Below, one piece after another: positions 34,712-42,539 of a stretch of DNA of 64,000 nucleotides. The translations under genes and the position numbers were made by a program. Source of the DNA: a bacterium (GTDB lineage Bacteria; Bacillota_I; Bacilli_A; RFN20; CAG-288); NCBI GenBank assembly GCA_963660905.1, contig CAVKZJ010000003.1, forward strand, positions 42,160 to 106,159, read 5' to 3'. The notes under the pieces are model-generated. The model saw only the letters and a program-made list of their open reading frames with translations, was not told where the DNA came from and did not search any database. Numbering within the stretch: position 1 is the first letter of the stretch; every line of letters begins with the position of its first letter.

Positions 34712-34756
34712 TGCCTAGACTTTCCTTTTTGGAAGGCCTAGGTTTTTTTCTTTGAA
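34712..34756 (+). terminator. hairpin terminator after uxuB
   Basis: GCCTAGACTTTCC-ttttt-GGAAGGCCTAGG followed by TTTTTTT. Confidence 0.45.
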
Positions 34757-34790: not shown

Positions 34791-34817
34791 GAAAGGAAAT
34801 CAAAAGGAGGTATTCAA

Positions 34818-35222
34818 ATGGCCTATTATCTACAGCAGAGTGGGCAAAATCTTGTCGTCGCTAAAGAAATTATGGTTCTTTTCTCGACCGATCGAGTTGA
34901 GATCGTCAATTTAGGAAAGAACACAAAGGATACAAGATCATTCCCAAATAAAATCTATGATATTGTCTATCAGCCTGAATTGAAATCGGATCTATATGAA
35001 TTGAGAGTCTATCTGTTCGAAACATATATTCCCATCGATCGAGTGTATTTCAATGTGGAGAATCTGATGAAGACAAAAGAAGAGCTTCCCCCGCAGACAA
35101 AAAGAAAGATTATGGAAGTGAAGAAGGAAGTGAAAATCAAAACGACGAAAACAAAAGTGGAATCCTTAAAGAATGAGTTCCAGGAAAAGGTAAAGGAGAT
35201 TGTGAAAAATGTACTTGAATAA
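34818..35222 (+). CDS. hypothetical protein (134 aa), first gene of McrBC-like island
   Basis: Start at MAYYLQ chosen for its AAAAGGAGG RBS; no recognisable domain; Lys/Glu-rich C-terminus; its stop overlaps the next gene's start. Confidence 0.5.
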   Translation: MAYYLQQSGQNLVVAKEIMVLFSTDRVEIVNLGKNTKDTRSFPNKIYDIVYQPELKSDLYELRVYLFETYIPIDRVYFNVENLMKTKEELPPQTKRKIMEVKKEVKIKTTKTKVESLKNEFQEKVKEIVKNVLE

Positions 35223-36132
35223 AGAAAATCTGTCATCCATGAGTGAAGCGGAAATTGAGAGACTATGTACGATTGCGAGCGTTGAAAGACTGAAAAACAT
35301 CCTGATTGATTATTATGGAGATGAATCAACTAGAAGAAAGCATTACGGAAAAGGATCGAAAGAGTGGAATAATAAAGACAAAAAAAATCCGCCAGCCTCC
35401 TTTGTGAAGAGTTTCTTTGTGTTTCTCTTCACCAAGGAAGAGAATGTTCCTGAAAAATATTATCAGCTGTTCGAAGAGAAACTTTTGAAGACGATTGTCG
35501 GGAAGGAAAAATATCAGAATGCCTCTGCGGAGATGATCCATTCTTCTATCGATGAGGATGAGAAATATAGCCAGAGAGACTATAAGGCGATTCTCTATAA
35601 GGCTTTTGGTTTTGAGTTGGAAAAGGAAGAAGACCTCCCTGTAGAGGAAGCCGACGAAGAGGAAGAAAAGGAAGAAGTGAAAACCAAATTCTCCTTGCCT
35701 AAGATTTCCAAGAAGGATGATGTGGAGACAAGAATCAATCAAGCTGTCAGCAAGCAGGCCAAGGAAGACAAGAAAAACTACGATGACCTGAAGAAGAAAT
35801 ATGACGCATCGGAAAACAAGCTCAAAAAAGCTCAAGAGGATCTTTCTGTTCTGAAGAATTCCTACTCCACGCTGAAAAAAGAACGCGATGGATTCGAAAA
35901 AAAGAATGCGGAGAATGAGGAAAAATTATCTTCCATCCTGAAAAAACTGAATACTCTATCGAAAAGAAAGATGGCTGATCTTGATAAAAATACGCTTTTG
36001 GTTGAGCAGAGCAATGCCGTGGAAATTCTTCAGCTGGCCATCGATGAATTGAAGAAATCCCATTATTCTCTCTCGATGGATCAGATTGTGAAGGCCTATG
36101 TGATTTTAGGTCTTCTTGAGAAGGGAGAATGA
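35209..36132 (+). CDS. coiled-coil protein (307 aa), function unknown
   Basis: Globular N-terminal domain, acidic linker (EEADEEEEKEE), long heptad-like Lys/Glu-rich segment; 14-nt overlap with the upstream gene and ATGA overlap with the downstream gene. Confidence 0.55.
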   Translation: MYLNKENLSSMSEAEIERLCTIASVERLKNILIDYYGDESTRRKHYGKGSKEWNNKDKKNPPASFVKSFFVFLFTKEENVPEKYYQLFEEKLLKTIVGKEKYQNASAEMIHSSIDEDEKYSQRDYKAILYKAFGFELEKEEDLPVEEADEEEEKEEVKTKFSLPKISKKDDVETRINQAVSKQAKEDKKNYDDLKKKYDASENKLKKAQEDLSVLKNSYSTLKKERDGFEKKNAENEEKLSSILKKLNTLSKRKMADLDKNTLLVEQSNAVEILQLAIDELKKSHYSLSMDQIVKAYVILGLLEKGE

Positions 36133-38087
36133 GAATGGAACAGGAAATGGATTTTAGCGGACTGAGCGAGAAATTCGACGAGGTTTCTGATCATGTCGTT
36201 TTGGCTGTTCTCTATAAGACCTTCATGATGCAAAGTCAGAACCATTGCTATTTGCAATGTGCACTTCTTCCGATTTCGGATGAACCGGATATTCTTCTAG
36301 AGAATGAATCGGTTTTCTGGAGCAAAGCCATGATTGATGGGAAATCCTGCTATACTGTCACAGGTGACAACCTTTTGCAGTATCTTGGCAAATGGGATGG
36401 ATATTCTTCTGAATCCGAGGAGGATGTGAGAAGACAAGAGGAAATCATTGTCGAAGCGATGAAGGAGAAAATGCTTCTTTTCACTCCGTATTACAAATAT
36501 GATGAGAGAAAGAATATTTTCTACAAAAATGTCGATTCCAATGAGGACGTCTTGACTCTTCCGCTTCATTATCTCAATGAAAGCTACTTTGTTGTCCCGA
36601 TTCTCAATGAACAGAATTTCAGACTGTTTTTGGCCCACAAAACCTTCTCTCTTTCCAATTGGAATCTGAGTCTCTTTGGAAAACCGAAATATATTCTCTA
36701 TGGAAACCACCTTATTCTTGCTCCTTTAACGACAAGCGAGAACTCGGATTACAACTGCCAATGGGAAAAGAAAGATAAGGATTATCTTGATCTCGAGTTC
36801 GACTTCGATGATTTCGTCTCTAACGGTTTCCTTTACTATGAAAATGGATCGGGATACTGCTTCTTGGAAAAGGCAAGCCTTCCTCTCATGAGGAAAATGC
36901 AGTCCCTTCCTTTCCAAGACGATGATTCACAGGATGAGATGGAGAAAATCGTCCAGCCTTCCGATCAGTATGATACAAGAAAAGCCTTACTCGGCTTTGA
37001 GTCCTATCTGAAAAGCAAGAATCTCTACTATTATGATGACGATGTCAAGAATTTTCATGCCTGTCTGAAATGCCGGCTTCTGACGATTCTTGCTGGCATG
37101 TCGGGAACGGGAAAGACACGTCTTCCCTTGGAATATGCAAACTACTTCAACATGACAGAGGAGAACGGCACGCTTCTTTTTGTTCCGATTTCGCCAAGCT
37201 ATACGGAGCCGAGCGATATGCTCGGATTCTATAATCCGGCCAATGAAAACTATATGTCCAGTGAGACGGGCTTGGTTAGTTTTCTTAAGCATGCCTCAGA
37301 AAATCCTGACAAGATGCATATGGTGGTTTTCGATGAGATGAATCTTGCACAGATCGAATATTATTTTGCTCCCTTCCTTTCGATATTGGAAAGAGAAAAA
37401 GACCGTCGGATTCTTCGACTCTACGACCAAAACCTGGAATGCAAGAATAAGGAACTCTATCCCGATTCCATCAAAATCGGAGACAATGTCCTTTTTGTCG
37501 GAACCATCAATCTTGATGATACGACAAAAGAGCTTTCCGAAAGACTTCTTGACCGTTCATTTGTGATTTCCTTGCGCCGTGCTTCGTTTGATAAATACAA
37601 TGGCGTCATGCTCGATAGGGCAGAAGAAAACGGAAAGATCTATGAAGGGGAATTGATGTCCTTGATGCCAAAGATGGCAAAGACGTTCAACTTCAACTCC
37701 TTTCTGACTCCGACGATGCGAGAATTCTTCGATGAATTCAATCGTCTCCTCTCGGAGAAGGACCCACAGAAAGGCATCTCCTTCAGAACTGTTCGCAACA
37801 TCTCTCTCTATCTTGCCAATTCGAGAATGGAGGAAGACGGTCTACTCGATGACATCGGGGCAAAACAGGCTTTTGACTTTGTTTTCCGTCAGACGGTTTT
37901 AAGAAGAATCCGAGGAAGTGACGAGATTTTGAGCGAAGTGCTTGGATGTCGTACGGAAGATGGTAAAATTCATTCTCCAATCTATGATCTGCTTGAGAAA
38001 TATGGCGAGATATCCTCGTTTGAGCTTTCCAAGCAGGAAATCGCCAATAAAATACTTGAATTGAAGCGGTATGGCTATGTCCGATAA
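36129..38087 (+). CDS. McrB-like AAA+ GTPase (AAA_5 type) with novel about 300-aa N-terminal domain
   Basis: Walker A GMSGTGKT, Walker B VVFDEMN, and McrB-signature GTINLDD...LDRSF (compare McrB GTMNxxD...RRF); the first 300 aa match nothing recognisable. Confidence 0.8.
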   Translation: MRMEQEMDFSGLSEKFDEVSDHVVLAVLYKTFMMQSQNHCYLQCALLPISDEPDILLENESVFWSKAMIDGKSCYTVTGDNLLQYLGKWDGYSSESEEDVRRQEEIIVEAMKEKMLLFTPYYKYDERKNIFYKNVDSNEDVLTLPLHYLNESYFVVPILNEQNFRLFLAHKTFSLSNWNLSLFGKPKYILYGNHLILAPLTTSENSDYNCQWEKKDKDYLDLEFDFDDFVSNGFLYYENGSGYCFLEKASLPLMRKMQSLPFQDDDSQDEMEKIVQPSDQYDTRKALLGFESYLKSKNLYYYDDDVKNFHACLKCRLLTILAGMSGTGKTRLPLEYANYFNMTEENGTLLFVPISPSYTEPSDMLGFYNPANENYMSSETGLVSFLKHASENPDKMHMVVFDEMNLAQIEYYFAPFLSILEREKDRRILRLYDQNLECKNKELYPDSIKIGDNVLFVGTINLDDTTKELSERLLDRSFVISLRRASFDKYNGVMLDRAEENGKIYEGELMSLMPKMAKTFNFNSFLTPTMREFFDEFNRLLSEKDPQKGISFRTVRNISLYLANSRMEEDGLLDDIGAKQAFDFVFRQTVLRRIRGSDEILSEVLGCRTEDGKIHSPIYDLLEKYGEISSFELSKQEIANKILELKRYGYVR

Positions 38088-39747
38088 ACTCTTCGTCACG
38101 ATAAATAAAGAGGAACCGATTGCCTTTGATCTTTTAAAGGAAAAGGAAAGAATCCTCTTTTCAATGAATGATACCTGCCACCTTCGTGTTTCTTTTCATA
38201 CGGATTCCAACGGCCGGTTTTCCATGCAGTGCTATCAGGCATTGAATGAAAAGAAGAACAAGAAAATCACGATTGAAAAAAACATCCTCCTCTTGGATAA
38301 GGATGTTACGTATTATGTTTCCGGAGGAAGCGAATATTATTACCTTCCGGGAGTCTATTGTCTTTACTATGAATGCACCACGGGCAAGAAGACATTCTAT
38401 TTTGAAGTGAAAAATAATTCTGTCTTGGGAAAGGATGGATTTGGAAACATCATCGTAAGACTCGAATCGATTCTTCAGAATATCACCCGTGAGCTTTCCA
38501 GGAAAGGCGATGTGGATTCTTCCGAGCAGTCCTATCCTCTTTTGGCACATCGATTGGAAGAAAATTTTCCTTCCTTCAAGGAACTTGAAAGAAGGATGCT
38601 TTCCTGTCTGAAGGAGGATGTGGTGACGGTCTATGGCTTTTTTTCCTCTGGAAGAGAAGACTACAAGACATTCAGGAGAAACGTCACGCATCCTTTTTCG
38701 GAAAAGATGACGAAGAAAAAAAGACTCTCCTATGATTCGAACGAAAACCGTTTTCTGAAGTATCGGATGAATGCCTTCAAAAGAAAGATATCTTCCCTTT
38801 TGAATTCCCTGAAGGAACAAGAGGTGAAAAATCATCTCTTGCAAAAGGAAGGGATGGAAAAACAGGAAGAGCTTACCAAAAAAAGAGAAGAGAATCTCTA
38901 TATGGATGCTCGGCTTTCCAAGGAAGACCTTGTTCTCCAAAAGAAACAGAATGAGCTGCGAGGAGAAGACAAAGTCATATCTGGCCTGATGGAAATTTTG
39001 ATGAGATACTATCGCATCTGCGGTTCCTTTCTGCAAGATGAAAGAATCAAGAAGGTCAGACTTCTCTCGACACCATCCTATTTATCTTCCTCGCCGATGG
39101 CAAAAGAAATCCGTGACATGCAAAAGAAGATTTTTCCAGATAAGGATAAAGTCTCCTATAAACCGGCTCGCGAACTGTTCGAACTCTATGGCTATTATCT
39201 GATCCACACGGCTTTGATGGAACTCGGCTATCAAAAAACAGACCAATCTCTTTCTGTCCTCAAGGAAAATGAAAGCTTTTTTGTCTATGAAAGTGAACAG
39301 AGGATGGTCAAGGTTCTCTATGGTCCCTTCTGTAAGGATTTCCTTACCAATAAAGAGATGGATTGCACGGTCAGCATCAATTCTCATCACCGATCGCCTG
39401 ATTTCATCATGGAAGTCTATGATTCAAACACAAATGTCTTCCTTTTCGATTTGGTTTTGGAAATCAAATATATCCCGATTTTCAAGTTTGAGGAAAAACC
39501 GGATCTGAAAAAGGATATTTTATTGACAGCGAGCGACTATCTCCAATTCGGCTTTGTCTCTTCAGAAGGATTGCGAGTCGGTGCCGTGAGAAAAGTGATG
39601 ATTCTTTTCCCATCATTGGAAGAGAAAATTGACGACTATCTTTCTTTCCATAAGATTTATCTCTTAGGCATCGACATGAATAAGGAGACCGATGAAAGCA
39701 TGGTCTATTCCTTCCTGAGAGAAGAATTAAGCAAAGAAAATGAATGA
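38071..39747 (+). CDS. McrC-like PD-(D/E)xK endonuclease with long N-terminal extension
   Basis: C-terminal PDF...D-x-EIK motif (SPDFIMEVYD...FLFDLVLEIKY) consistent with the McrC nuclease core; coiled-coil segment in the middle; 17-nt overlap with the McrB-like gene. Confidence 0.65.
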   Translation: MAMSDKLFVTINKEEPIAFDLLKEKERILFSMNDTCHLRVSFHTDSNGRFSMQCYQALNEKKNKKITIEKNILLLDKDVTYYVSGGSEYYYLPGVYCLYYECTTGKKTFYFEVKNNSVLGKDGFGNIIVRLESILQNITRELSRKGDVDSSEQSYPLLAHRLEENFPSFKELERRMLSCLKEDVVTVYGFFSSGREDYKTFRRNVTHPFSEKMTKKKRLSYDSNENRFLKYRMNAFKRKISSLLNSLKEQEVKNHLLQKEGMEKQEELTKKREENLYMDARLSKEDLVLQKKQNELRGEDKVISGLMEILMRYYRICGSFLQDERIKKVRLLSTPSYLSSSPMAKEIRDMQKKIFPDKDKVSYKPARELFELYGYYLIHTALMELGYQKTDQSLSVLKENESFFVYESEQRMVKVLYGPFCKDFLTNKEMDCTVSINSHHRSPDFIMEVYDSNTNVFLFDLVLEIKYIPIFKFEEKPDLKKDILLTASDYLQFGFVSSEGLRVGAVRKVMILFPSLEEKIDDYLSFHKIYLLGIDMNKETDESMVYSFLREELSKENE

Positions 39748-39910: not shown

Positions 39911-41140
39911 ATGAAAGAATTCGTTGCAAAAAGAAGTAGACAGGGCGTTTCCAAGACGGACATCATTGCAATCAACTCTCAGGCTTTGAAGGATGCAAAA
40001 GAAGGCAATAAGGTCATCAACGCATCCATCGGCACTTTCCTAGACGATGATAAGAAAGTCGGATCTGTTCCATTGATCAAGGAAGCTATAAAGGATCACA
40101 TCACGGATAACTTGGGTTATTCGGGAACTTCCGGTGTCGCCTCCTATCTGGATGGCGTGATGAAGTATGTTTTTGCTGACAAATTAGAGTCCGTTCAGTC
40201 TCTCTACACACCTTTTGTAGGCGGAACTCTTGGTGGCACGGGTGCGATTTCCATCGCTTTCAATCTCTTTTTGGAGGAAGGCGAAGCGGTTTTGCTTCCG
40301 GATGTCATGTGGACGAACTACAAACTGATTGCCAAGAAGGCACATGCTACTTACATGACGTATACGATGTTTGATGAAAAAGGTGGATTGAATCTTCCTT
40401 CCATCCGTAAGACGATTCAAGAGGCAAGAGAAAAATATCACCACGTGCTTTTGGTCATCAATGATCCCTGCCAGAATCCGACAGGATATTGCATGACGAA
40501 GGAAGAATATGATGAATTGTTTGTCATTCTCAATGAGGAAGGAAGAAAAGGATATCTGACTGTCTTATTCGATATCGCCTATATCTCCTTCTTCCATATC
40601 GATGGAAAAGAGTGCGGCCTGATTGAGAAACTCGCAGAAGGAAAATGCGATTTCCTTCCGCTTGTCTGCTTCTCCTGCTCGAAACTGTTTGGCCTTTATG
40701 GACTTCGTGTCGGCGCCTTGATTGTGCTTTGCCCGAATGAGGAGAATCAGATCGAAGTCAAAAGAGCGTTCGGTGCCATGGCAAGAGGAACCTATTCCGT
40801 TCCGAACGGTCCTGCCCAAATTGCCGTCAGCCAGGTTCTCAATGATCCTGAGAAAATCGCTGAACTGAATGCACAGGTCCAGAAGAATTCGGATATTCTT
40901 GCGGAAAGAAGCAAAATTCTGATGGAAGAACTTGAAAAAGCGGGAATCGAATATTATCCCTATAAGAGTGGTTTCTTCATCACCTTGAAGATCAAGGATG
41001 CATTCGAAGTCTCCAAGAAACTTGTCGCTTCCCATATGTATGTCGTTCCGATGAATGAGGACTCAATCCGTTTAGCCATATCCGGCATGACGAAAGAAGA
41101 AGTCGCTCTTCTCATCCAGGAAATCAAGAAAGTCCAATAA
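39911..41140 (+). CDS. class I/II pyridoxal-phosphate aminotransferase (aspartate/aromatic type)
   Basis: Start trimmed to MKEFVAK, which has an AAGGAG RBS; fold-type I aminotransferase with a conserved Lys region (SCSKLFGLYGLRVG). Confidence 0.85.
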   Translation: MKEFVAKRSRQGVSKTDIIAINSQALKDAKEGNKVINASIGTFLDDDKKVGSVPLIKEAIKDHITDNLGYSGTSGVASYLDGVMKYVFADKLESVQSLYTPFVGGTLGGTGAISIAFNLFLEEGEAVLLPDVMWTNYKLIAKKAHATYMTYTMFDEKGGLNLPSIRKTIQEAREKYHHVLLVINDPCQNPTGYCMTKEEYDELFVILNEEGRKGYLTVLFDIAYISFFHIDGKECGLIEKLAEGKCDFLPLVCFSCSKLFGLYGLRVGALIVLCPNEENQIEVKRAFGAMARGTYSVPNGPAQIAVSQVLNDPEKIAELNAQVQKNSDILAERSKILMEELEKAGIEYYPYKSGFFITLKIKDAFEVSKKLVASHMYVVPMNEDSIRLAISGMTKEEVALLIQEIKKVQ

Positions 41141-41144
41141 AAAA

Positions 41145-41185
41145 AGAAAACGATCGATCACATTGTGGGTCGGTCGTTTTTTAGA
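41145..41185 (+). terminator. rho-independent terminator after aminotransferase gene
   Basis: AAACGATCGATC...GGTCGGTCGTTTTTT imperfect hairpin followed by a T-run. Confidence 0.45.
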
Positions 41186-41207
41186 AGATAAATATGGCAA
41201 TGAGATG

Positions 41208-41567
41208 TTATTTATCGACGATTTCGATTTTGGAGACGTTATTGAGCTTTGGAGGATAGACAAGGGAAACCGTTCCGTCATAGGTGATCTTTAATTTGTC
41301 ACCTTCCTTGATATCCTCGAATTTTGCTTCTTGTCCGTTCTTGATCACCTTGGAAATGTCATTCTGCTCAAAGGTATAGAAATAATCTTCTGTGCCGGTA
41401 TCCGTAACATTCAGTCCCCAGAAGTTATTGACATTCTTGTAGGTTCCGGAAATGATGAATTCGTTGTTTTTTTCAATTTCCATTCCTTTGATGCCCTGAT
41501 TATCCTCATGGTATTTGGAGAAGTTGGACACTAAAGACAACGCGGCAAAAAGAAAATTTTTCTTCAT
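41208..41567 (-). CDS. small secreted protein, function unknown
   Basis: Start at MKKNFL has an AAGGAGAGG RBS at good spacing; signal peptide. Confidence 0.5.
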   Translation of the reverse strand: MKKNFLFAALSLVSNFSKYHEDNQGIKGMEIEKNNEFIISGTYKNVNNFWGLNVTDTGTEDYFYTFEQNDISKVIKNGQEAKFEDIKEGDKLKITYDGTVSLVYPPKLNNVSKIEIVDK

Positions 41568-41609
41568 GTTCATCCTCTCCTTTCCATTCGGTTTATTTAT
41601 TATAAAATA

Positions 41610-42539
41610 TTACACCCGTTTTGTGTAGTTGCTGAAAAATCTTTTTACATAGGGTGCGACTTTTTCATTTCCATAGAGGTTCTTCAGTCTTCCGAATACA
41701 GTATCGACGCTTCTTGAGGCTCCTTTTGGGATTTCCATATGGAAAACTTCTTCCATCTTTTTCCATTCGACTAAAAAGGTATATCGTGCAATGACGCTTG
41801 ATACCGCAACGGAAGGATAATAAGTTTCTCCTTTTGTTCTGAAATAGAGTGGATTTTTGATAATGTCATCGGCAACGTATTTCCGATAATTGTCTTCGGC
41901 AAGAAATTGGTCGACATAGGTGATGAGAAAATCAGGAAGACCATATTTTTCCATCAGTCCACGATGGGCGTGGTTATGTGCAATGGAAAGCGCTTTATCG
42001 ATATTGATGTGATTGTCATGGAGTTTGGAAAGCTTATCAGCGGAAATCAGGACGATATAGTTCTTGATTTTCTTTTTTAGGGCAGGTCCGATCTCTAGGA
42101 TGTAGTCATCATTCATTTTCTTGGAATCATTGATCTTCATCTTCTCTAAATAGGGGATATCTTCTTTTCCGACGTAGCTTGCAGTGACAATCAACGGACC
42201 AAAAAAATCACCTTTTCCGACTTCGTCTGATCCAATCTGAGGACCAAAGTCCTCCCATCCTTCGATGATATTATGGGATTTTGTCTCTTTTGGCTCAGTT
42301 TTCTTGATCGTAAAATCCTTAGAAAAAATACTGACAAGTTCTCTTGTCTTTTCTTCCTCTCCTGAAAAAGAGATGGTATAGATTTCTTTTTTGTTTTTAT
42401 AGGCATGGATATGGACGCCCTGATAGGTTGTATCGAAATAGTCATAAGGATGCTTTTCGTCAGAGATTTCGCTTGCTTGAAGGAAATCCTTGATTTCGCT
42501 GGCCTTGGCCAAGTCTGTCTTGATGGTTATGTAAGTCAT
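41610..42539 (-). CDS. rnhC: ribonuclease HIII
   Basis: 309 aa; N-terminal extra domain plus RNase HII-fold core with a DEVGKGDFFGPL catalytic motif. Confidence 0.8.
   Translation of the reverse strand: MTYITIKTDLAKASEIKDFLQASEISDEKHPYDYFDTTYQGVHIHAYKNKKEIYTISFSGEEEKTRELVSIFSKDFTIKKTEPKETKSHNIIEGWEDFGPQIGSDEVGKGDFFGPLIVTASYVGKEDIPYLEKMKINDSKKMNDDYILEIGPALKKKIKNYIVLISADKLSKLHDNHINIDKALSIAHNHAHRGLMEKYGLPDFLITYVDQFLAEDNYRKYVADDIIKNPLYFRTKGETYYPSVAVSSVIARYTFLVEWKKMEEVFHMEIPKGASRSVDTVFGRLKNLYGNEKVAPYVKRFFSNYTKRV

What the first reader, a model, noticed from the sequence alone, without database searches (positions are those of the whole stretch)
34818..36132. Two unknown proteins, one with a long coiled coil, translationally coupled upstream of McrB-like gene
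The 134-aa protein and the 307-aa protein have no recognisable catalytic motifs. The 307-aa protein has a globular N-terminal domain, an acidic linker and a heptad-rich Lys/Glu segment. The first gene's stop overlaps the second gene's start by 14 nt. The second gene's stop overlaps the McrB-like start in an ATGA arrangement. This implies tight stoichiometric co-expression. Coiled-coil elements fused to McrB define the recently described CoCoNuT systems. Here the coiled coil is a separate polypeptide, which would be a distinct architecture.
Basis: partly seen in the sequence, partly recalled or inferred. Interest (0 to 1): 0.65.

Follow-up and report, generated by a model that had tools for sequence, protein, structure and literature searches.

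The report
Four-gene CoCoNuT-like McrBC defence operon
The two unknown genes are real, conserved accessory subunits of a McrBC-type restriction-like defence system of the recently described CoCoNuT branch; a free-standing coiled-coil subunit is already known there, so this is a variant, not a new kind.

Summary
A 134-aa gene (A, 34818-35222) and a 307-aa gene (B, 35209-36132) overlap by 14 nt. They lead straight into a McrB-like GTPase gene (C) and a McrC-like nuclease gene (D). B has a helical head, an acidic disordered linker, a coiled coil of about 80 residues and a short helical hairpin.

The layout small ORF + coiled-coil protein + GTPase + nuclease recurs in about 25 loci in unrelated neighbourhoods. 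In some relatives B is fused to the GTPase. A and B are therefore subunits of the system, not a neighbouring operon.

C carries the N-x-D-[E/D] signature of the CoCoNuT branch. It scores about 80 bits against CoCoNuT CnuB and 27 bits against E. coli McrB.

The novelty claim fails. Bell et al. (eLife 2024) already describe a separate coiled-coil protein, CnuA, in Type I-B and III-B CoCoNuTs.

The cassette still differs from Type I-B as described:
- B has no receiver (REC) domain.
- B shows no detectable similarity to CnuA-like proteins of the sister clade.
- The small, fast-evolving gene A is not mentioned in the paper.

Verdict: a new variant of a known kind, of moderate interest. The role of A is unknown.

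The parts
34714..34749 (+). Intrinsic-terminator-like hairpin plus T7 run after the upstream short-chain dehydrogenase gene. It marks the 5' boundary of the cassette's transcription unit.
   Evidence: stem 34720-34736 followed by a T run; sequence read.
34803..34810 (+). Ribosome-binding site AAAGGAGG of gene A.
   Evidence: Sequence; 7 nt upstream of the ATG at 34818.
34818..35222 (+). Gene A: a 134-aa protein. By sequence pattern the N-terminal ~90 residues look beta-rich and the C-terminal ~40 residues look like a Lys/Glu-rich amphipathic helix. No known family.
   Evidence: 10 clusters of ~81-84% identity. Only 7 clusters at 50% identity in 1.84 billion proteins, all 127-150 aa. dN/dS 0.14-0.16. 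Called as a 134-aa gene in L094.
35209..36132 (+). Gene B: a 307-aa free-standing coiled-coil protein, CnuA-like by position and layout.
   Evidence: dN/dS 0.09-0.10.
35209..35613 (+). B head domain (aa 1-135): six predicted helices, plus a low-confidence loop carrying the conserved motif YGKGSKEW..NP.
   Evidence: AF2 model; alignments A1, A5, A9; hhalign of the head alone against the fused FS proteins, probability 95.9%, E 6e-9.
35620..35718 (+). B acidic, predicted-disordered linker (aa 138-170).
   Evidence: pLDDT below 50 over residues 138-170; sequence.
35737..35970 (+). B coiled coil (aa ~177-254; one continuous helix 169-252 in the model).
   Evidence: Heptad score 0.82 against shuffle 0.47 +/- 0.10.
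35986..36120 (+). B C-terminal helical hairpin (aa 260-304) with a conserved Tyr297. Too short for a receiver domain.
36129..38087 (+). Gene C: McrB/CnuB-like AAA+ GTPase, 652 aa from 36129 or 650 aa from the ATG at 36135.
   Evidence: AAA_5 1.1e-7; PADLOC PDC-M26A 3.6e-41; E. coli McrB structures 1.5e-5; 660 homologues; Type I-A CnuB 69-80 bits; start at 36135 in L094.
36129..36908 (+). C N-terminal region (aa 1-260): a mixed beta/alpha fold modelled with high confidence. It is homologous to the N-terminal region of the sister-clade (presumed Type I-B) CnuB proteins. It has weak resemblance to OB folds.
   Evidence: AF2 pLDDT 88.7, pTM 0.84. Foldseek against PDB gave no hit at E<=0.001; the top weak hits are Teb1, LEF-3, RPA70, HIN, editosome OB proteins and SSB. 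hhalign against the IB N-regions: probability 99.3%, E 3e-20.
37095..37118 (+). Walker A motif GMSGTGKT (aa 323-330).
37509..37520 (+). GTPase signature N461-L-D463-D464. This is the N-x-D-[E/D] variant; most relatives have NLDE.
   Evidence: N461 and D463 are invariant and position 464 is E or D in 23 homologues and in 67 loci.
38071..39747 (+). Gene D: McrC/CnuC-like protein of 558 aa, with an N-terminal part that looks beta-rich, a DUF2357 domain and a PD-ExK nuclease.
   Evidence: DUF2357 2.5e-6. The family profile matches Type I-A CnuC at E 1e-11 to 1e-12. 17-nt overlap with C.
39397..39468 (+). Nuclease motif: P443-D444 ... E464-I-K466.
   Evidence: PD and [E/D]xK are conserved in all 41 McrC-like homologues aligned.

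Best explanation
Genes A and B are the first two genes of a four-gene operon, A-B-C-D. The operon is a CoCoNuT-type McrBC-like (Type IV-restriction-like) defence system.

C is a CnuB-like GTPase of the N-x-D branch. Its N-terminal ~260 residues probably form a nucleic-acid-reading module (OB-like; the counterpart of the CSD-YTH region described for Type I-B CnuB). D is a CnuC-like partner with a DUF2357 domain and an intact PD-ExK nuclease.

B plays the part that CnuA plays in Type I-B CoCoNuTs. It is a free-standing protein with a helical head, a flexible acidic linker, a coiled coil of about 80 residues and a short helical tail.

Inferred mechanism, not shown here:
1. B dimerises through its coiled coil and docks on the GTPase ring.
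2. It then either bridges two GTPase-nuclease complexes or couples its fast-evolving head, acting as a sensor, to GTP-driven activation of the nuclease.
3. A is a small, lineage-specific accessory protein present only where B is free-standing. It probably binds or regulates B, possibly through its C-terminal amphipathic helix.

Shown here: gene structure, conservation, co-occurrence, fusions, motifs and fold classes. Inferred: the defence role, the physical contacts, and the target (RNA or DNA).
For: 1. Conserved four-gene layout. A small ORF (100-180 aa), a coiled-coil protein (260-330 aa), a McrB-like gene (~600-670 aa) and a McrC-like gene occur together with overlapping or abutting boundaries. 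This holds around McrB-like homologues of 36-59% identity in unrelated neighbourhoods and in about 25 of 80 genome loci.

2. Fusions.
- In five Acholeplasmatales/Anaeroplasmataceae loci, B's head and coiled coil are fused directly to the GTPase domain (hhalign 98.5%, E 2e-15; head alone 95.9%, E 6e-9).
- In six other loci a helical-head-plus-coiled-coil module is fused in front of a C-like N-region and GTPase (C N-region against these: 96.6%).
- Both fused types sit inside the same GTPase clade as the four-gene loci (NJ tree).

3. CoCoNuT branch.
- The N-x-D-[E/D] motif is invariant.
- C scores 69-80 bits against partial Type I-A CnuB sequences from the paper's supplement, against 27 bits for E. 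coli McrB.
- The D family profile hits Type I-A CnuC at 1e-11 to 1e-12.
- PD...ExK is intact.

4. B anatomy.

5. Real genes: dN/dS 0.09-0.16, with independent gene calls.

6. Own transcription unit. There is a terminator upstream. GC is 37-43% in the cassette and 44-51% in the upstream genes.

7. Every B homologue found by a B-first search with readable context lies in such a cassette.
Against: - No experiment and no structure of any complex exists, so the A-B and B-C contacts are inferred only from gene overlap and fusions.
- B's model has modest confidence (pLDDT 64.8), and its head gave no significant fold match.
- No sequence similarity was detectable between B and the 430-500-aa coiled-coil proteins of the sister clade (hhalign below 25%). 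'CnuA-like' is therefore an analogy of position and layout, not demonstrated homology.
- Homology of A is demonstrable only within the window's own sub-clade. The small ORFs elsewhere may be unrelated.
- The reverse test (B or A without McrBC) is thin. There are only 7 clusters for B. The A representatives have no context, and the metagenome scans found nothing.
- The defence role rests on family membership only. The cassette sits among sugar-acid catabolism and housekeeping genes, not in an obvious defence island.
Confidence: 0.75

Rival explanations
1. The cassette is simply a member of the already described Type I-B CoCoNuT subtype. B would be a true, highly diverged orthologue of CnuA whose REC domain has decayed to a helical stub. 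A would be an incidental lineage-specific small gene.
For: - The gene order is the same: coiled-coil protein, then CnuB without a coiled coil, then CnuC.
- C's N-region is homologous over about 230 columns to that of the sister clade that carries 430-500-aa coiled-coil proteins.
- The four-gene clade is sister to that clade.
- CnuA composition already varies in the paper (Type III-B has a coiled coil only).
Against: - hhalign finds no similarity between B's head or tail and the sister-clade proteins.
- Only about 50 residues follow the coiled coil, and they are modelled as two helices. The sister-clade C-terminal domain has about 90-150 residues with weak alpha/beta matches.
- Foldseek gave no DEATH-fold hit.
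- A-like small ORFs are a constant feature of the four-gene clade and are absent from the sister clade.
Confidence: 0.3
2. A and B form an unrelated neighbouring module, such as a small toxin-antitoxin or regulatory pair, that merely sits upstream of a McrBC-like pair.
For: - Neither protein has a recognisable domain.
- The gene C start may leave a 2-nt gap rather than an overlap.
Against: - The quartet stays together in at least five unrelated genomic neighbourhoods.
- B is fused to the GTPase in related loci.
- No B homologue with readable context lies outside such a cassette.
- There is no terminator between B and C.
Confidence: 0.03
3. B arose by fission of an ancestral coiled-coil-McrB fusion, which is the usual CoCoNuT architecture. 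It is therefore a detached N-terminal arm of CnuB rather than a CnuA-type subunit, and A is a chaperone or assembly factor needed once the arm is detached.
For: - Fused forms (FS, FL) are interleaved with the four-gene forms in the GTPase tree.
- The gene order B then C matches the domain order in the FL fusions.
- A-like ORFs are absent where the arm is fused.
Against: - The NJ tree has no support values and cannot give the direction of change (fusion or fission).
- The FL heads show no detectable similarity to B.
- The sister clade also has separate coiled-coil proteins, which makes 'separate' the simpler ancestral state.
Confidence: 0.15

Closest known systems
Type I-B CoCoNuT system (CnuA-CnuB-CnuC), Bell et al., eLife 2024 (PMC11090510)
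   Same: - A separate coiled-coil protein is encoded immediately upstream of a CnuB GTPase that itself lacks a coiled coil, followed by a CnuC with DUF2357 and PD-(D/E)xK.
- The GTPase has the N-x-D-[E/D] motif.
- The hosts are Bacillota.
- The CnuB N-terminal region is homologous to that of the sister clade, which has the described architecture.
   Different: - B is 260-330 aa, has no receiver-like C-terminal domain, and shows no detectable similarity to the sister-clade coiled-coil proteins.
- An additional small gene (A) overlaps B's start.
- The GTPases form their own clade next to the presumed Type I-B and pseudo-I-B loci, not inside them.
- The hosts are mostly uncultured gut or rumen Bacilli, Erysipelotrichaceae and Acholeplasmatales MAGs.
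Type III-B CoCoNuT CnuA (coiled coil only)
   Same: It is a free-standing coiled-coil subunit without a REC domain.
   Different: Type III-B systems also encode a CnuH helicase and CnuE effector and have an inactivated PD-(D/E)xK domain. None of these is present here.
Type I-A / I-C CoCoNuT (coiled coil fused to CnuB)
   Same: - Same GTPase branch. C matches Type I-A CnuB at 69-80 bits and D's family matches Type I-A CnuC.
- Relatives of this cassette exist in which B is fused to the GTPase.
   Different: In the window the coiled coil is a separate polypeptide. In the long fused relatives the coiled coil lies in front of the OB-like region, not between YTH and the GTPase as described for Type I-C.
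Canonical E. coli McrBC (Type IV restriction)
   Same: An AAA+ GTPase plus a PD-(D/E)xK nuclease partner encoded by overlapping genes.
   Different: - The signature motif is N-x-D instead of NxxD.
- The N-terminal domain is different.
- The McrC-like protein has a DUF2357-type N-terminus.
- There are two extra subunits.
- Similarity to the E. coli protein is only 27 bits.
PADLOC candidate system PDC-M26
   Same: C matches model PDC-M26A (3.6e-41).
   Different: The match covers only residues 280-435. A, B and D hit no PADLOC model. No description of PDC-M26 was found in the paper library.

Membership tests
McrBC-type GTPase-nuclease pair | AAA+ McrB-family GTPase with Walker A/B motifs and the N-x(x)-D signature | tested here: met
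   AAA_5 1.1e-7. Alignment to E. coli McrB structures covers residues 312-488. GMSGTGKT, FDEMNL and GTINLDD are conserved.
McrBC-type GTPase-nuclease pair | Adjacent McrC-like partner with a PD-(D/E)xK nuclease | tested here: met
   17-nt overlap with C. DUF2357 2.5e-6. PD...ExK is conserved in 41 homologues.
N-x-D branch of McrB GTPases / CoCoNuT (Bell et al. 2024) | Signature motif shortened to N-x-D, usually followed by E or D | tested here: met
   N461 and D463 are invariant. Position 464 is E in most homologues and D in the window. The window sequence alone (NLDD) would be ambiguous; the family alignment resolves it.
N-x-D branch of McrB GTPases / CoCoNuT (Bell et al. 2024) | Long coiled coil associated with the GTPase, either fused or as a separate CnuA | tested here: met
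   B has a continuous helix at 169-252 with a strong heptad signal. It is encoded directly upstream of C, and it is fused to the GTPase in related loci.
N-x-D branch of McrB GTPases / CoCoNuT (Bell et al. 2024) | Closer to named CnuB/CnuC sequences than to canonical McrBC | tested here: met
   C against three partial Type I-A CnuB sequences: 69-80 bits. C against E. coli McrB: 27 bits. D family profile against Type I-A CnuC: E 1e-11 to 1e-12.
Type I-B CoCoNuT | Separate coiled-coil protein, and a CnuB without a coiled coil | tested here: met
   The C N-region model has no long helix.
Type I-B CoCoNuT | CnuA N-terminal pyrin/CARD-like domain | tested here: inconclusive
Type I-B CoCoNuT | CnuA C-terminal receiver (REC) domain | tested here: not met
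   Only about 50 residues follow the coiled coil, and they are modelled as two helices. The paper's REC example spans 87 residues, 266-352. There is no Response_reg hit.
Type I-B CoCoNuT | CnuB architecture CSD-YTH-GTPase | tested here: inconclusive
   The N-region is homologous to that of the presumed Type I-B loci (hhalign 99.3%, E 3e-20). The confident AF2 model gives only weak OB-fold matches and no YTH/EVE match. There are no Pfam CSD or YTH hits in this family or in the sister clade.
Type I-B CoCoNuT | CnuC architecture Ig-like - DUF2357 - PD-DxK | tested here: inconclusive
   DUF2357 and PD-ExK are met.
Type I-B CoCoNuT | Position inside the Type I-B clade of the CnuB GTPase tree | not testable with these tools
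   The paper's Type I-B sequences are cut from the stored supplement. In my NJ tree the four-gene loci form a clade sister to the loci with 430-500-aa coiled-coil proteins plus the Bacillus/Gottfriedia loci that lack one.
Type I-C CoCoNuT | Coiled coil fused between YTH and the GTPase within CnuB, in a two-gene system | tested here: not met
   C has no coiled coil, and the system has four genes.
PADLOC PDC-M26 | All component models present | tested here: inconclusive
   Only PDC-M26A is matched, and only over part of C. A, B and D have no PADLOC hit.

The most novel reading that the evidence does not exclude
The four-gene cassette may be a distinct CoCoNuT subtype in which the trigger sensor is not the nucleic-acid-reading domain of the GTPase. 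Instead it would be a detachable module made of the fast-evolving head of the coiled-coil protein B plus the even faster-evolving small protein A.

Observations compatible with this, though they do not show it:
- In the short fused relatives, B's head and coiled coil replace the OB-like domain altogether.
- The heads differ beyond recognition between lineages while the GTPase and nuclease stay conserved.
- A exists only where B is free-standing.
Probability: 0.2. Interest if true: 0.6.

Novelty: new variant of a known kind. Interest (0 to 1): 0.4.

Why it matters
No CoCoNuT system has been characterised experimentally in any paper I could find. What the coiled-coil subunits do is unknown.

This family offers a compact, four-gene version with three natural states of the same coiled-coil module:
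- free-standing with a small partner
- fused in front of the whole GTPase
- fused in place of its N-terminal reader domain

That series is a ready-made set of constructs for asking what the coiled coil and its head do. Candidate roles are bridging complexes, sensing, and regulation.

The work also corrects the record for annotation. The two 'hypothetical proteins' upstream of this kind of McrB-like gene are subunits of the system.

Tried and rejected
**Searches on A and B that found nothing**
- Pfam, NCBIfam and PADLOC scans of A and B gave only noise. A Pfam scan of 20 A-like small ORFs showed no recurrent family.
- PDB sequence search with B found nothing meaningful. Foldseek of the B model against PDB gave no hit below E = 3.

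**Comparisons that found no similarity**
- hhalign of B (whole, head, tail) against the 430-500-aa coiled-coil proteins of the sister clade gave no significant match. The one 73% hit was caused by including L042, which is really a split sister-clade protein.
- hhalign of A against the N-terminal parts of C and D found nothing.
- hhalign of A against the small ORFs of more distant four-gene loci found nothing.
- hhalign of the FL heads against B or the sister-clade proteins found only a coiled-coil-level match.

**Sister-clade checks**
- A Pfam scan of sister-clade coiled-coil proteins gave no Response_reg hit. Their C-terminal profile gave only weak alpha/beta matches in PDB.
- A profile of C's N-region against PDB sequences found nothing.

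**Scans of other collections**
- Metagenome scans for B relatives found none. Alignment A1 was too divergent to search with.
- A viral-contig scan for the GTPase found none.

**Rejected as artefact**
- B-profile hits to 154-aa minus-strand ORFs in Bacillus/Gottfriedia loci cover only the acidic and coiled-coil part of the profile. I treated them as compositional.
Full report
**1. The observation**

The region contains four co-directional ORFs:
- A, 34818-35222, 134 aa
- B, 35209-36132, 307 aa
- C, 36129-38087, 652 aa
- D, 38071-39747, 558 aa

A has a strong ribosome-binding site (AAAGGAGG, 7 nt upstream). B has AAGGAG 10 nt upstream of its ATG, inside the end of A. A and B overlap by 14 nt, and C and D overlap by 17 nt.

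The B/C junction can be read as an ATGA overlap. However, gene calls in a near-identical genome (L094) and in relatives (L003) start C at the next ATG (36135), 2 nt after B's stop, and the Shine-Dalgarno-like AAGGGAG is better spaced for that start.

A terminator-like hairpin with a T7 run follows the upstream dehydrogenase gene (34714-34749). None lies between the four genes on the + strand at a gene boundary. GC content is 37-43% in the cassette and 44-51% in the genes upstream.

Both small genes evolve under purifying selection: dN/dS is 0.14-0.16 for A and 0.09-0.10 for B.

**2. What A and B look like**

Neither protein matches any Pfam, NCBIfam or PADLOC model or any PDB sequence above noise.

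The AlphaFold2 model of B (7-sequence alignment, mean pLDDT 64.8) shows:
- six helices in residues 5-133, with a low-confidence loop at 27-62 that carries the conserved YGKGSKEW..NP motif
- a low-confidence acidic stretch at 138-170
- one continuous helix at 169-252
- a two-helix hairpin at 260-304

A simple heptad score confirms a/d hydrophobic periodicity over residues 177-254 (0.82 against 0.47 +/- 0.10 in shuffles). The same feature is found in all 23 B-like proteins examined.

Foldseek of this model against the PDB found nothing.

From its sequence, A looks like a beta-rich ~90-residue domain followed by a Lys/Glu-rich amphipathic helix.

**3. C and D**

- C is an AAA_5/McrB-type GTPase. 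It matches the PADLOC candidate model PDC-M26A.
- D has a DUF2357 domain. Its PD...ExK motif (P443-D444, E464-x-K466) is conserved in all 41 homologues aligned.
- In 23 diverse homologues of C the signature motif reads G-T-[IV]-N-x-D-[E/D]-T-T. N461 and D463 are invariant, and the following residue is E in most and D in the window. The same holds in 67 loci.
- Bell et al. describe exactly this N-x-D variant 'usually followed by E or D' as the mark of the branch that contains the CoCoNuTs.
- C scores 69-80 bits against three partial Type I-A CnuB sequences taken from that paper's supplement. It scores 27 bits against E. coli McrB. The D family profile matches Type I-A CnuC at E 1e-11 to 1e-12.
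- The N-terminal 278 residues of C fold with high confidence (pLDDT 88.7, pTM 0.84). Foldseek gives no significant PDB match. The weak top hits are almost all OB-fold single-strand binders: Teb1, LEF-3, RPA70, HIN domains, editosome OB proteins and SSB.

**4. Do A and B belong to the system?**

A word-indexed search of 5.8 billion proteins found only 7 clusters for B and 10 for A. Every B cluster with readable context lies in the same quartet. This includes a 36%-identical copy in a different neighbourhood (L001).

The GTPase family is much larger, with 660 hits. Around homologues of 50%, 47% and 38% identity, in three further unrelated neighbourhoods, independent gene calls show the same pattern:
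- a 109-142-aa gene overlapping a 267-308-aa gene by 14-17 nt
- that second gene abutting or overlapping the GTPase gene
- the McrC-like gene following with an 11-17-nt overlap

The B-like proteins align over their whole length.

I fetched 80 genome loci with the GTPase alignment and classified them with six-frame ORFs and jackhmmer. The classes are:
1. About 25 four-gene loci. They come mostly from MAGs labelled Erysipelotrichaceae, Acholeplasmatales, Bacilli or Bacillales, plus some bins with implausible names.
2. About 17 loci (IB) in Bacillus, Sporosarcina, Jeotgalibacillus, Clostridium, Hathewaya and others. These have a single 430-500-aa coiled-coil protein overlapping the GTPase start.
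3. Bacillus and Gottfriedia loci (PS) with no upstream partner.
4. Five loci (FS) in which B's head and coiled coil are fused directly to the GTPase domain, with no OB-like region. hhalign gives 98.5%, E 2e-15, and for the head alone 95.9%, E 6e-9.
5. Six loci (FL) in which a helical-head-plus-coiled-coil module precedes a C-like N-region and GTPase in one 744-886-aa protein. The C N-region against these gives 96.6%.

In a neighbour-joining tree of the GTPase domain, classes 1, 4 and 5 form one clade. That clade is sister to classes 2 and 3. The tree has no support values and is only a guide.

Conserved synteny across contexts, together with the fusions, shows that B is a component of the system. 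It excludes the 'unrelated neighbouring operon' reading.

**5. Gene A**

A full HMMER scan of 1.84 billion representative proteins found only 7 clusters, all 127-150-aa stand-alone proteins.

Sequence homology to A can be shown only in the window's own sub-clade, 19 loci. Every other four-gene locus has a 100-130-aa ORF in the same place, overlapping the B-like gene, but these show no detectable similarity to A. They are either extremely diverged or replaced.

No such ORF accompanies the fused forms. A shows no similarity to the N-terminal parts of C or D.

**6. Comparison with what is known**

It is not.
- Bell et al. (eLife 2024) define Type I-B CoCoNuTs by a separate coiled-coil protein, CnuA (pyrin/CARD-like head, coiled coil, REC domain). 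It sits next to a CnuB (CSD-YTH-GTPase, no coiled coil) and a CnuC (Ig-like, DUF2357, PD-DxK). These systems occur mainly in Bacillota.
- They describe a 'pseudo-Type I-B' in Bacillus that has lost CnuA.
- They describe a Type III-B CnuA that is a coiled coil only.

My classes 2 and 3 fit Type I-B and pseudo-I-B by host and architecture. C's N-region is homologous to theirs over about 230 columns (99.3%, E 3e-20).

I could not verify this against the paper's own sequences, because the stored supplement holds only part of the Type I-A sheet.

**7. How this cassette differs from Type I-B as described**

- B has only about 50 residues after the coiled coil, modelled as two helices, so the REC domain is absent. 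The sister-clade proteins have a C-terminal domain of about 90-150 residues with weak alpha/beta matches.
- B's head and tail show no detectable similarity to the sister-clade proteins.
- The small gene A has no counterpart in the description.
- The GTPases form their own clade, which also contains the fused forms.

The heads on the coiled coil (B, FL, sister clade) are mutually unrecognisable, while the GTPase and nuclease are well conserved.

**8. Mechanism**

Established knowledge of McrBC is that a GTPase hexamer, whose N-terminal domains read the target, recruits McrC, and GTP hydrolysis drives nuclease action. Together with the anatomy above, this suggests that C and D form such a core here, with an OB-like reader and an active PD-ExK nuclease.

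B most likely dimerises through its coiled coil and attaches to the GTPase. It would then either bridge two complexes or link a variable head, as a possible sensor, to activation. A may bind or regulate free-standing B.

These steps are inferred. Nothing here shows contacts, targets (RNA or DNA) or a defence phenotype.

**9. Verdict**

The system and the branch are right; the novelty claim is wrong.
- I classify this as a new variant of a known kind: a four-gene, REC-less, CnuA-like-plus-small-protein form of a Type I CoCoNuT-like system, with natural fused relatives.
- Interest is moderate.

Noticed in passing
L008:10568-11122 (also L009): A gene with Pfam PTS_2-RNA (RNA 2'-phosphotransferase, KptA/Tpt1-like, 184 aa) starts 48 nt after the McrC-like gene of a four-gene cassette. 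This could bear on the proposed RNA targeting of CoCoNuTs. It was seen only in one group of close relatives.
   Followed up: no
L042:4305-5716 (Fervidicella metallireducens): The coiled-coil gene upstream of the McrB-like gene is split into a 202-aa ORF and a 265-aa ORF. The first matches the head consensus and the second the tail consensus of the 430-500-aa sister-clade proteins. This is either a frameshift or a genuine split.
   Followed up: partly
window 36129-36137: The McrB-like gene has two in-frame ATGs, at 36129 and 36135. Public gene calls use the second one (650 aa), which removes the ATGA overlap with gene B.
   Followed up: yes
L003:14135-15184 and L004:8267-9316, compared with window 41140-41610: Close relatives carry a 349-aa DUF4143 ATPase gene between the aminotransferase and RNase HIII genes. 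The window lacks it. This is a small strain-variable insertion next to the cassette.
   Followed up: no
L067-L090 (Gottfriedia/Bacillus loci), minus strand, about 3 kb downstream of the McrC-like gene: A conserved ~154-aa ORF is hit by the iterated B profile at E 1e-18 to 1e-26, but only over the acidic and coiled-coil part of the profile. I treated this as compositional. Its identity was not checked.
   Followed up: partly
window 34818-35222: The exact 134-aa product of gene A is not in the 15-billion-protein collection, whereas B and C from the same genome are. The best A hit was 84% identical. A near-identical genome does have the gene called (L094).
   Followed up: partly
L015, L018, L029, L064, L066 (record titles): Several loci carrying this Bacillota-type cassette come from MAG bins named Bacteroides uniformis, Alistipes, Bacteroidales or Sodaliphilus. 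These names are probably binning or labelling errors rather than real hosts.
   Followed up: no
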